Positions 36,491 through 36,959 of a stretch of 39,474 bases of DNA are shown in pieces; the stretch's first letter is position 1; the number at the start of each line of letters is the position of its first letter. Source of the stretch: a virus; IMG/VR virus record IMGVR_UViG_3300045988_140196; one strand, given 5' to 3'. The notes under the pieces were generated by a model. That model had not been told where the DNA came from and did no database searches. It worked only from the letters and a program-made list of their open reading frames with translations. A program made the position numbers and the translations under genes.

Positions 36491-36607
36491 ATGAATAAAA
36501 CCGCAAAAGCCTTGAGGCTGTACACACACACACACACACACACACACACCACATTTCTAGTGGACAAAAATGGAGCAAAGGAGGAAGTAGAGAGCAACAG
36601 AAGTTAG
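36491..36607 (+). CDS. Small ORF (38 aa) whose coding sequence contains the (AC)14 tract
   Basis: Hand-translated as MNKTAKALRLYTHTHTHTHTTFLVDKNGAKEEVESNRS. AGGAGG (36474-36479) lies about 11 nt upstream of the ATG. Confidence 0.3.
   Translation: MNKTAKALRLYTHTHTHTHTTFLVDKNGAKEEVESNRS
36522..36549. repeat. (AC)14 dinucleotide microsatellite
   Basis: 28 nt of uninterrupted AC repeats, counted directly in the sequence. Confidence 0.98.
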
Positions 36608-36629
36608 CAATACTTCCTCGTGATTGTGA

Positions 36630-36959
36630 ATGATTCCAAAGTGTAAATTCAACAACAATATGAGAAAAATATGGAGTGGTAATTTATATGCATTAAATAG
36701 TTATCAACCATTTAATGAACCACTTAAAAAAAATAAACTATATATATTTGTGGTAAAGTCTTTGTCATCAGCGTACATAGAATTTATTCCGTATATTTAC
36801 GGTGTGGGAAACAGTTTACAACATTCATATTACGACGGCTCAACAGTTGTTAGATGGAGAATTGCTATAAATTCAAAAGGAACTGAATTTGCATTAAATA
36901 CAGATAGCTTAAATATGTCAAGTAATACTAGTGTTTTGGCAGTATATGAATTAGGTTGA
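36630..36959 (+). CDS. Hypothetical protein, MIPKCK paralog 1 (no RBS)
   Basis: 109 aa. No Shine-Dalgarno sequence. The start ATG lies in GTGAATGATTCC. It shares the MIPKCK start with the next ORF. Confidence 0.45.
   Translation: MIPKCKFNNNMRKIWSGNLYALNSYQPFNEPLKKNKLYIFVVKSLSSAYIEFIPYIYGVGNSLQHSYYDGSTVVRWRIAINSKGTEFALNTDSLNMSSNTSVLAVYELG

What the first reader, a model, noticed from the sequence alone, without database searches (positions are those of the whole stretch)
36491..36633. (AC)14 microsatellite inside a leader ORF whose alternative frame ends in an ATGA overlap with an RBS-less downstream gene
A 28-nt AC tract is very unusual in this AT-rich phage. It lies inside a 38-aa ORF that has a usable AGGAGG. 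With 14 units the ORF stops at 36605-36607, 22 nt before the next ATG. Loss of one unit, or gain of two, moves translation into the frame that stays open until the TGA at 36631-36633. That stop overlaps the ATG at 36630 of the next gene, which has no Shine-Dalgarno sequence of its own. Gain of one unit instead stops at 36558. Repeat-length slippage could therefore switch translational coupling to the two downstream ORFs on and off, a phase-variation mechanism.
Basis: partly seen in the sequence, partly recalled or inferred. Interest (0 to 1): 0.75.

Follow-up and report, generated by a model that had tools for sequence, protein, structure and literature searches.

The report
Phase-variable AC-repeat switch in prophage
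A 28-base AC repeat inside a tiny leader gene of a gut-Clostridia prophage changes length from strain to strain and probably switches two tail-fibre-tip-like genes on and off, and the same repeat module sits many times in the host bacteria's own genomes in front of surface-protein genes.

Summary
(AC)14 lies at 36522-36549 inside a 38-codon leader ORF with a strong Shine-Dalgarno sequence (SD). The next gene, ORF109, has no SD and starts in an ATGA overlap with one of the three leader frames.

Seven relatives at least 99.8% identical over up to 2 kb of flank carry 10, 11, 13, 14, 16, 17 and 18 units. Thirty-six related prophage loci span 4-20 units and all three frames.

The leader SD/ATG, a hairpin with compensatory changes, and the ATGA overlap are kept across different holins and different downstream cassettes. 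ORF109 and ORF207 look like tail-fibre tips.

The module is not specific to phages. The motif AAGCCTTGAGGCTGT followed by (AC)n occurs more than 120 times in uncultured gut Clostridia genomes, about 20 copies in one of them. There it is fused to pilin-like genes, placed before terminators (as in the Streptococcus gallolyticus Pil1 attenuator), or coupled to masked start sites.

Best reading: a contingency locus that gates translational coupling. This is a new variant of a known kind. Switching within one population and its effect on expression remain untested.

The parts
36223..36489 (+). Holin gene. Its last codons (QEDK*) encode the SD of the leader.
   Evidence: Pfam Phage_holin_5_2 at 3.3e-14 and PHROG holin. 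Three different holins in relatives all end in an SD placed ahead of the leader ATG.
36476..36481 (+). AGGAGG Shine-Dalgarno sequence of the leader ORF, 9 nt before the ATG.
   Evidence: Sequence. Duplex energy of -10.3 kcal/mol with the anti-SD.
36491..36607 (+). Leader ORF in its present frame: 38 aa, MNKTAKALRLY(TH)n..., with its stop inside the hairpin.
36507..36521 (+). Conserved 15-nt motif AAGCCTTGAGGCTGT directly 5' of the repeat. It can form a small hairpin, AGCC-UUGA-GGCU.
   Evidence: Every (AC) tract of 5 or more units in 830 kb of host loci follows this motif: 124 exact, 7 with 1-2 mismatches, and 2 interrupted tracts of the same element. It is read in two different frames in different loci.
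36522..36549 (+). (AC)14 hypermutable tract.
   Evidence: The count is 4-20 units in 36 related prophage loci and differs among relatives with identical flanks.
36558..36560 (+). TAG that ends the 'early-stop' frame (n mod 3 = 0 in this variant), 72 nt before ATG 36630.
   Evidence: L166 n=18, L167 n=9.
36581..36619 (+). Conserved RNA hairpin: outer stem GAGGAAGUA/UACUUCCUC (an SD-like arm against an anti-SD-like arm), inner stem GCAAC/GUU(A)GC, no U-run after it.
   Evidence: It is the minimum-free-energy fold (-15 to -17 kcal/mol). The inner stem shows compensatory variants AAC/GUU, ACA/UGU and ACU/AGU. No Rfam family matches.
36605..36607 (+). TAG stop of the current frame, in the 3' side of the inner stem, with 22 nt between it and the ATG.
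   Evidence: A stop at this place in the hairpin is kept in all variants.
36630..36633 (+). ATGA overlap: the start of ORF109 overlaps the TGA of the third leader frame (n mod 3 = 1 here).
   Evidence: Conserved in all 10 flank variants.
36630..36959 (+). ORF109, a small all-beta protein without an SD; its fold resembles a tail-fibre or receptor-binding tip.
   Evidence: AlphaFold2 model with pLDDT 85. Top Foldseek hits are phage K gp144 C-terminal domains, the phi812 baseplate, tailspikes and Gp12 short tail fibres. A homolog with a different N-terminus sits in the tail module of another phage.
36973..36986 (+). Conserved inter-cassette junction TTGCAATCGCTCTC, lying between the stop of cassette 1 and the MIP... 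start of cassette 2.
36997..37590 (+). ORF207, a tail-fibre-type protein without an SD. The likely start is MIPKCK at 36997; an in-frame ATG at 36967 is not conserved.
   Evidence: PHROG minor tail protein, C-terminal part, 1e-12. Homologs of 215 aa lie directly after an 835-aa Peptidase_S74 fibre in other phages. Junction comparison.
37613..38473 (+). Endolysin (Amidase_2 plus PG_binding_1) with its own SD.
   Evidence: -10.8 kcal/mol.
38479..38496 (+). Intrinsic terminator that closes the holin-leader-ORF109-ORF207-endolysin unit.
   Evidence: No + strand terminator lies between the holin and the endolysin.

Best explanation
The (AC)n tract is a contingency locus. Slipped-strand mispairing during replication adds or removes AC units. 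This moves ribosomes that start at the well-served leader ATG (36491) into one of three frames.

Frame 1 (n mod 3 = 1 in this variant) reads through the conserved hairpin and terminates at the UGA of AUGA. The ribosome then reinitiates on ORF109, which has no SD. ORF207, also without an SD, follows by further coupling. This is the ON state.

Frame 2 is the present state (n=14). It stops inside the hairpin with 22 nt between the stop and the AUG. It is probably a low or intermediate state.

Frame 3 stops 72 nt upstream. This is the OFF state.

The switched products are two small proteins that resemble tail-fibre tips, so a lysogen population would release virions that differ in accessory receptor-binding proteins. 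The endolysin keeps its own SD.

Shown: the anatomy, hypervariability between strains, conservation of the design, and the fibre-like nature of the cargo. Inferred: switching within a population, reinitiation, the ranking of the three states, and incorporation into virions.
For: - Tract hypervariability with invariant flanks.
- The leader SD and ATG are kept behind three unrelated holins.
- ORF109 and ORF207 are among the weakest SDs of 40 starts.
- ATGA is kept in 10 of 10 flank variants. The ATGA frame is open for 26-27 codons in 9 of 10 despite indels, and despite a different peptide in variant B.
- The hairpin carries compensatory changes.
- Six other (pro)phage copies of the module end their long frame at -2 to +11 of the ATG of fibre-like genes. 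In four of the five folded, the SD and ATG are sequestered in a stable hairpin.
- Host copies use the same leader as an in-frame 5' extension (20 loci) or ahead of a terminator that only one frame reaches (70 loci).
- The terminator logic has been proven experimentally for S. gallolyticus Pil1 (PMC3894217).
- The cargo is fibre-like.
Against: - There are no read-level data, so variation within one population is not shown.
- Frame states in 36 assemblies are 13 ON, 10 loop and 13 early. That is uniform and is also what a neutral microsatellite would give.
- A given frame is open over 80 nt in 17% of shuffles, so openness alone is weak evidence.
- One variant (L013, L177) has a 2-nt insertion that closes the ATGA frame for every n.
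- L183 and L185 have contracted to n=4.
- Reinitiation from the stop 22 nt upstream cannot be excluded, so the present state may not be OFF.
- Expression of ORF109 and ORF207 has never been observed.
Confidence: 0.65

Rival explanations
1. The SSR switch is the same, but the output is transcriptional. The hairpin, or the roughly 1 kb of untranslated RNA that follows an early stop, causes pausing, termination or Rho-type polarity. The tract would then set mRNA levels of the cassettes, and possibly of the endolysin and so lysis timing, rather than reinitiation.
For: In 70 host copies the leader precedes a true intrinsic terminator that only one frame reaches. This is the mechanism shown for Pil1. 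In the phage, one frame also stops inside the hairpin. The C-rich, unstructured (AC)n would be a plausible Rho loading site (my inference).
Against: The phage hairpin has no U-run, and no + strand terminator is predicted between the holin and the endolysin. The ATGA overlap and the missing SD are specifically what coupling needs. The endolysin has its own strong SD.
Confidence: 0.12
2. It is a neutral, hypermutable microsatellite inherited as part of a conserved recombination junction. The leader region only serves as homology for swapping cassettes, and repeat length has no regulatory consequence.
For: Frames are uniformly distributed. Mosaic genomes have their breakpoint at the leader: L015, L155 and L162 match the window at 1000 of 1000 bases to the left but carry a different cassette to the right. 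Two variants look decayed. An open frame is not rare by chance.
Against: Long, uninterrupted dinucleotide tracts are not kept neutrally in bacteria (general knowledge). Here the tract is maintained in more than 150 loci, always with an SD, an ATG and the same motif. The downstream designs are each frame-sensitive: fusion, terminator reached by one frame, and stop-start overlap on masked start sites.
Confidence: 0.15
3. (AC)n acts as an unstructured ribosome standby site or translational enhancer whose length, not its frame, tunes initiation downstream.
For: CA repeats are used as unstructured standby tails that override structured ribosome binding sites (PMC5934652).
Against: The tract lies inside a translated ORF with a strong SD. 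It is 80 nt and one hairpin away from the ORF109 AUG. In host loci the same tract is simply part of the coding 5' end of long genes.
Confidence: 0.05
4. The tract is an assembly or sequencing artefact.
For: Short-read assemblers can mis-size repeats.
Against: The tract is found at the same place in more than 40 independent assemblies of the phage and more than 120 host loci, and at 28-40 nt it is well within read length.
Confidence: 0.01

Closest known systems
Streptococcus gallolyticus Pil1/Pil3 pilus phase variation: GCAGA repeats in a leader peptide gene followed by a premature terminator (Danne et al. 2014, PMC3894217)
   Same: The SSR sits inside a short leader ORF with its own ribosome binding site, and a stem-loop lies downstream. 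The position of the leader's stop codon relative to the stem-loop decides expression. Both belong to Gram-positive gut bacteria and both control surface appendage genes. The host 'terminator class' copies of the AC module match this design point for point.
   Different: The unit is a dinucleotide (AC), not a 5-mer. The window's hairpin has no U-run, and the output is a stop-start (ATGA) overlap onto a gene without an SD, which means translational rather than transcriptional coupling. The module lies in a prophage late operon. It carries an invariant 15-nt motif and is present in many copies per genome.
Classical in-frame SSR contingency genes, such as Neisseria opa CTCTT repeats or Helicobacter pylori CT repeats in signal-peptide coding regions (my own knowledge)
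   Same: Slippage of a repeat near the 5' end shifts the frame. The repeat sits in a part of the protein that is removed or dispensable. Twenty host copies, where the tract is fused ahead of the prepilin-like cleavage motif, are of this kind.
   Different: In the window the repeat is not in the regulated gene at all but in a separate upstream ORF.
Phage contingency loci: polyG tracts in receptor-binding genes of Campylobacter phages (my own knowledge) and homopolymer tracts in T2/T4 (PMC12633550)
   Same: A hypermutable repeat in a phage genome creates heterogeneous progeny. The Campylobacter phage case also concerns receptor-binding proteins.
   Different: Those are homopolymers inside the affected coding sequence of lytic phages. 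Here a dinucleotide tract lies in a leader ORF of a temperate phage, acts on two downstream cistrons, and uses a module shared with the host genome.
Translational coupling by termination-reinitiation at overlapping stop/start codons (ATGA, TAATG), with or without a masked ribosome binding site (textbook knowledge)
   Same: There is an ATGA overlap, the downstream gene has no SD, and a hairpin lies next to the start. Sister loci have the SD and AUG buried in a hairpin.
   Different: Here coupling is made conditional on the length of a microsatellite.

Membership tests
SSR contingency locus (slipped-strand phase variation) | Long uninterrupted simple repeat, well above chance for the genome | tested here: met
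   (AC)14 is the only dinucleotide tract in a window of about 30% G+C.
SSR contingency locus (slipped-strand phase variation) | Repeat number differs among otherwise identical or near-identical genomes | tested here: met
   n=10, 11, 13, 14, 16, 17 and 18 in seven sequences at least 99.8% identical over up to 2 kb of flank. The range is 4-20 over 36 loci.
SSR contingency locus (slipped-strand phase variation) | Repeat changes alter the reading frame or promoter of a gene in a way that changes expression | tested here: inconclusive
   The frame consequences are certain from the sequence. The effect on expression of ORF109 and ORF207 is inferred only.
SSR contingency locus (slipped-strand phase variation) | High-frequency, reversible switching within one clonal population | not testable with these tools
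   No reads or cultures are available. Only consensus assemblies were compared.
Leader-peptide SSR attenuation (S. gallolyticus Pil1 type) | SSR lies within a short leader ORF that has its own ribosome binding site | tested here: met
   Conserved behind three different holins.
Leader-peptide SSR attenuation (S. gallolyticus Pil1 type) | Stem-loop between leader and regulated gene, reached by the stop codon of only some frames | tested here: met
   The hairpin is at 36581-36619. One frame stops before it, one in it, and one beyond it.
Leader-peptide SSR attenuation (S. gallolyticus Pil1 type) | The stem-loop is an intrinsic terminator (stem followed by a U-run) | tested here: not met
   There is no U-run after 36619 and no + strand terminator is predicted. 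The feature is met in 70 host-genome copies of the module, but not in the window.
Translational coupling by termination-reinitiation | Stop of the upstream ORF overlaps or abuts the start of the downstream ORF | tested here: met
   ATGA at 36630-36633 in one of three frames. Conserved in 10 of 10 variants.
Translational coupling by termination-reinitiation | The downstream cistron lacks an independent ribosome binding site | tested here: met
   -2.4 kcal/mol for ORF109, and -3.6 or +1.6 for ORF207, against -6.9 or stronger for 33 of 36 other genes.
Translational coupling by termination-reinitiation | Downstream translation depends on upstream translation | not testable with these tools
   This needs reporter constructs.
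Phage tail-fibre or receptor-binding tip proteins (the cargo, ORF109 and ORF207) | Sequence or fold similarity to known fibre or receptor-binding C-terminal domains, and homologs located in tail modules | tested here: met
   ORF207: PHROG minor tail protein at 1e-12, and homologs lie next to a Peptidase_S74 fibre. ORF109: the model matches phage K gp144, the phi812 baseplate and Gp12 short fibres with TM 0.6-0.7 and borderline E-values, and a homolog sits in a tail module.
Phage tail-fibre or receptor-binding tip proteins (the cargo, ORF109 and ORF207) | Presence in the virion and a role in adsorption | not testable with these tools
   The ORF207 structure model was poor (pLDDT 51). No experimental data exist.

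The most novel reading that the evidence does not exclude
The unit AAGCCTTGAGGCTGT-(AC)n is a portable, motif-tagged phase-variation module shared by an uncultured lineage of small-genome gut Clostridia and its prophages. The bacteria use 7 to about 20 copies per genome to switch pilin-like surface proteins, which are candidate phage receptors. The prophages use the same module to switch alternative receptor-binding tips. Both sides of a phage-host conflict would then be randomised by one device with three interchangeable outputs: in-frame fusion, leader-terminator attenuation, and stop-start coupling. The 15-nt motif is conserved at the nucleotide level and is read in two different frames, so it would have a function of its own, such as promoting slippage or binding a factor.
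Probability: 0.3. Interest if true: 0.9.

Novelty: new variant of a known kind. Interest (0 to 1): 0.8.

Why it matters
If the switch works as proposed, a temperate phage of the human gut would diversify its accessory receptor-binding proteins with a simple repeat rather than an invertase or a diversity-generating retroelement. It would do so through an upstream leader ORF, which leaves the switched proteins themselves unchanged.

The same module in the host genomes defines a large and previously unnoticed set of phase-variable surface-protein genes in uncultured gut Clostridia. The three output designs give a natural series for studying how one repeat can be wired to translation or to transcription.

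There is also a practical point. Repeat length at these loci is a ready marker for strain-level and within-host dynamics in metagenomes.

Tried and rejected
- Megablast of the region against GenBank phages found nothing. tblastn with ORF109 found nothing. tblastn with ORF207 found only two weak Bacillus phage hits.
- Rfam at a permissive threshold gave no RNA family for the leader or hairpin.
- Searches of PDB sequences with ORF109 and ORF207 gave nothing meaningful.
- The AlphaFold2 model of ORF207 had pLDDT 51, so it was not used for fold search.
- The 18-mer scan of metagenome contigs returned many chance hits from soil and water. These were discarded unless the AC tract or hairpin context was present.
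- MAFFT misaligned the inner stem of the hairpin. Covariation was therefore read from individual folds rather than from the count of structure pairs.
- I first thought the ON frame was favoured, because 8 of the first 10 loci had it. The larger sample shows 13/10/13, so that idea is rejected.
- I considered conserved leader peptides (KALRLY / SLEAV) as the functional element. This is rejected because the same DNA motif is read in two frames in different loci.
- I considered the MIPKCK cysteine as a lipid or attachment site. The Cys is not conserved (MIPKLK, MIPKYK, MIPKRK).
- I considered promoter-spacer phase variation. No promoter-like site flanks the tract.

Full report
**1. The observation**

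The window is a temperate phage of low G+C content, about 30%. Its 3' end reads: tail fibre genes, an XhlA-like gene (35873-36199), a holin (36223-36489), an endolysin (37613-38473) and a terminator (38479-38496). About 1.1 kb lies between the holin and the endolysin. It begins with a 38-codon ORF (36491-36607) that contains (AC)14 at 36522-36549. This is the only dinucleotide microsatellite in the window.

- AGGAGG lies 9 nt before the leader ATG.
- The present stop is at 36605-36607.
- One alternative frame ends at TGA 36631-36633, which overlaps ATG 36630.
- The third frame ends at TAG 36558.
- ORF109 has no SD.

I quantified the last point. The best duplex with the anti-SD is -10.3 kcal/mol for the leader. 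It is -2.4 for ORF109 and -3.6 or +1.6 for the two candidate starts of ORF207. It is -6.9 or stronger for 33 of 36 other genes and -10.8 for the endolysin.

**2. Is the repeat variable?**

Yes, extremely. ORF109 is encoded, residue for residue, on contigs in 833 blocks of the public assembly collection, mostly human gut metagenomes. The leader was also found in IMG/VR and metagenome contigs.

In 36 loci that carry the complete leader-hairpin-ATGA unit, n is 4, 4, 7, 7, 9, 10, 10, 10, 11, 11, 12 (five loci), 13 (three), 14 (four), 15 (four), 16 (four), 17 (three), 18, 18 and 20.

The contrast with the flanks is the key result.
- L008 (n=16) and L165 (n=13) match the window (n=14) at 2000 of 2000 flanking bases.
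- L004, L011, L166 and L181 have at most 2 mismatches and carry n=10, 11, 18 and 17.
- Thirteen loci with an identical 83-nt 3' flank carry n=12-20.

The tract therefore mutates orders of magnitude faster than the surrounding DNA. An assembly artefact is excluded by the number of independent assemblies.

**3. Anatomy that is conserved around the tract**

(a) The leader SD and ATG sit directly behind the stop codon of three unrelated holins. The last codons of each (QEDK*, SEGK*, KEGK*) spell an SD.

(b) The 15 nt immediately 5' of the tract, AAGCCTTGAGGCTGT, are conserved.

(c) A hairpin lies between the tract and the ATG, at 36581-36619. Its outer stem is GAGGAAGUA/UACUUCCUC.
- It is the predicted fold in every context tried.
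- Its inner stem occurs as AAC/GUU, ACA/UGU and ACU/AGU. That is two pairs with compensatory double changes.
- No U-run follows it, and Rfam has no match.

(d) In all 10 sequence variants of the 81-87-nt spacer the next gene starts with ATGA.
- In 9 of 10 the frame ending in that TGA is open all the way back to the tract (26-27 codons). This holds despite indels.
- Variant B encodes a different peptide through the hairpin (KEEVESTRRVV against KGGSREQQKLA). What is kept is therefore the open frame and the RNA structure, not the peptide.

(e) The two other frames behave the same way in every variant that keeps an open ATGA frame. One stops 0-3 codons after the tract, 66-83 nt before the ATG. The other stops inside the hairpin, usually 25-33 nt before the ATG.

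Caveats:
- A given frame is open over 80 nt in 17% of composition-matched shuffles, and the variants are related by descent.
- One variant (L013, L177) has a 2-nt insertion that closes the ATGA frame.
- L183 and L185 have shrunk to n=4.

**4. What is switched**

ORF109 and ORF207 are real genes with phage-tail affinities.
- ORF207 matches the C-terminal parts of PHROG minor tail proteins at 1e-12.
- Its 215-aa homologs (55-78% identity) lie in other phages directly after an 835-aa Peptidase_S74 tail fibre. They differ only in the first 20 or so residues.
- ORF109 gives a confident all-beta model, with pLDDT 85.
- Its best structural matches are the C-terminal domains of the staphylococcal phage K receptor-binding protein gp144, a phi812 baseplate protein, tailspikes and Gp12 short tail fibres. 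TM scores are 0.6-0.7 and E-values are near 1e-3 to 1e-4.
- A 139-aa homolog with a different N-terminus sits in the tail module of another phage.

Related prophages carry other pairs of small cassettes at the same place. These begin MIPNCK..., MIPKCR..., MIPITK..., MIPNNK... or MIPKGY.... Several match C-terminal pieces of tail fibre families.

A conserved block, TTGCAATCGCTCTC plus an A-run, precedes the second cassette. Comparison shows the second cassette starts at its own 'MIP' ATG, which is 36997 in the window, again without an SD.

Genomes that are 100% identical to the window up to the tract but carry a different cassette after it (L015, L155, L162) show that the leader is also the recombination junction for cassette exchange. 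One contig (L167) has two such modules, one before the XhlA/holin genes and one after.

**5. The module is not a phage invention**

All were from uncultured gut Clostridia MAGs from humans and rabbits, one of them a closed 1.55-Mb chromosome. One MAG (BRZ_DD__bin29) has about 20 copies and several others have 7-11.

Each copy is an SD, an ATG, 4-10 variable codons, the motif and (AC)3-20. In 830 kb of these loci every (AC) tract of 5 or more units follows the motif. No other dinucleotide repeat of 6 or more units is enriched.

Most host copies read the motif as ...SLEAV(HT)n. The phage reads it as ...KALRLY(TH)n. The conservation is therefore at the nucleotide level.

Three output designs occur.
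- **In-frame fusion (20 loci).** The leader is fused in frame to 200-790-aa proteins with a prepilin-like N-terminus (KGITLVALVVTIVVLLILAGV; weak N_methyl match). Their C-terminal domains vary and include BspA-type LRR and FGE-sulfatase-like domains. Only about a quarter are in frame.
- **Leader plus terminator (70 loci).** The leader is followed by a strong intrinsic terminator and then by the SD and ATG of a pilin-like gene. In nearly all of these, exactly one frame stays open for 19-32 codons and stops inside or beyond the terminator stem. The other two stop within 3-28 nt of the tract. The assembled states are 56 early stops and 14 stops in or beyond the stem. This is the architecture shown experimentally for the S. 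gallolyticus Pil1 pilus. There, GCAGA repeats in a leader peptide decide whether the ribosome reaches and opens a premature terminator (PMC3894217).
- **Stop-start coupling (six prophage-like loci: L028, L038, L052, L079, L114, L127).** The long frame ends at -2 to +11 of the ATG (ATGA, TAATG or a short overlap) of genes that resemble tail-fibre C-termini. In four of the five loci folded, the SD and ATG of those genes are buried in a stable hairpin of the AGAGG...CCUCU type, a classical masked ribosome binding site.

The window's element is a fourth variation on this theme: hairpin, no SD, ATGA.

**6. Mechanism proposed**

Slippage in (AC)n sets the leader's frame. The frame sets where ribosomes stop. 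Only ribosomes that run through the hairpin to the UGA of AUGA are placed to reinitiate on ORF109, and from there on ORF207.

I expect three levels.
- ON: n mod 3 = 1 for the window's spacer variant.
- Low or intermediate: the stop lies in the hairpin with 22 nt before the AUG. This is the window's present state, n=14.
- OFF: the stop lies 72 nt upstream, the hairpin is intact, and there is no SD.

The steps that are shown are the frame arithmetic, the hypervariability, the conservation of each component and the nature of the cargo. The steps that are inferred are reinitiation, the ranking of states, switching within a population, and use of the proteins in virions.

The uniform 13/10/13 distribution of states among assemblies fits a fast unbiased switch. 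It equally fits neutrality. For that reason I put the main explanation at 0.65 and keep 'neutral junction microsatellite' at 0.15 and a transcriptional or polarity output at 0.12.

**7. Comparison with what is known, and novelty**

The following are all known:
- SSR contingency loci;
- in-frame repeats in signal-peptide regions;
- the Pil1 leader-peptide attenuator;
- ATGA coupling;
- hypermutable tracts in phages (Campylobacter phage polyG, from memory; T2/T4 homopolymers, PMC12633550).

My literature searches found no description of the following:
- a dinucleotide repeat in a leader ORF gating stop-start coupling;
- such a switch on receptor-binding-like cassettes of a prophage;
- this motif-tagged AC module in gut Clostridia.

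The window fails one defining feature of the Pil1-type attenuator, because its stem-loop is not a terminator. I therefore describe it as working like that system but with a translational output. Verdict: a new variant of a known kind, of high interest. The invariant 15-nt motif is unexplained, and a matched host/phage use of the module is the most novel reading still open.

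Noticed in passing
L019-L138 (GTDB genome contigs), e.g. L100:158-1662, L138 (three copies), L041, L110: The phage's motif plus (AC)n leader is a multi-copy element of uncultured gut Clostridia genomes. It lies in front of pilin-like surface protein genes, either fused in frame or followed by a terminator that only one reading frame reaches.
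   Followed up: partly
window 36507-36521; all module copies: The 15-nt motif AAGCCTTGAGGCTGT is almost invariant next to every AC tract, yet it is translated in two different frames (SLEAV in host copies, KALRLY in the phage). Its conservation is therefore at the nucleic-acid level. Its function is unknown; it could be a small hairpin, a slippage promoter or a binding site.
   Followed up: partly
window 36973-36986 and 36590-36595; L013:6698-6711, L167:284-297, L174: A conserved inter-cassette block, TTGCAATCGCTCTC plus an A-run, precedes the start of the second cassette, which has no SD. Its GCUCUC is complementary to the invariant GAGAGC in the internal loop of the leader hairpin. This could be a long-range pairing or a reinitiation element, or it could be chance.
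   Followed up: no
L015, L155, L162 compared with window 35522-37549: These genomes are 100% identical to the window for 1 kb up to the tract but carry a different cassette pair after it. The leader/tract region is therefore a recombination breakpoint for cassette exchange.
   Followed up: partly
L167:1-3511: One phage contig carries two AC-leader modules, one before the XhlA/holin genes and one after. Each is followed by two small 'MIP/MKP...' cassettes. This would allow four cassettes under two independent switches.
   Followed up: no
L183, L185 (n=4); L013, L177 (GT insertion in the hairpin 5' arm): These copies look decayed or locked. In L183 and L185 the tract has contracted to 4 units, in the early-stop frame. 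In L013 and L177 a 2-nt insertion closes the ATGA frame for any repeat number.
   Followed up: partly
L028:4997-5932 (- strand), L114, L038, L079: In other prophages of the same hosts, neighbouring small fibre-tip-like ORFs share an N-terminal peptide (MSMPLILNKILRKIKN / MIAMSLVIKKILNNLKN). The codons ...AUG CCU CU... double as the anti-SD arm of a hairpin that masks the SD and start codon.
   Followed up: partly
window 8299-8394 and 25003-25071: Two tandem repeats lie elsewhere in the phage. One has a 12/36-nt period with 2.7-7.4 copies and sits in the early/replication region. The other has a 36-nt unit with 1.9 copies and 93% matches, just before the ORF at 25092. Neither was examined.
   Followed up: no
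window 27709-27963 and 12009-12326: Two further ORFs have very weak SDs (-3.3 and -0.5 kcal/mol). The first lies just after the 27185-27625 ORF upstream of the tape-measure gene, so it might be the frameshift-extended tail chaperone. This was not checked.
   Followed up: no
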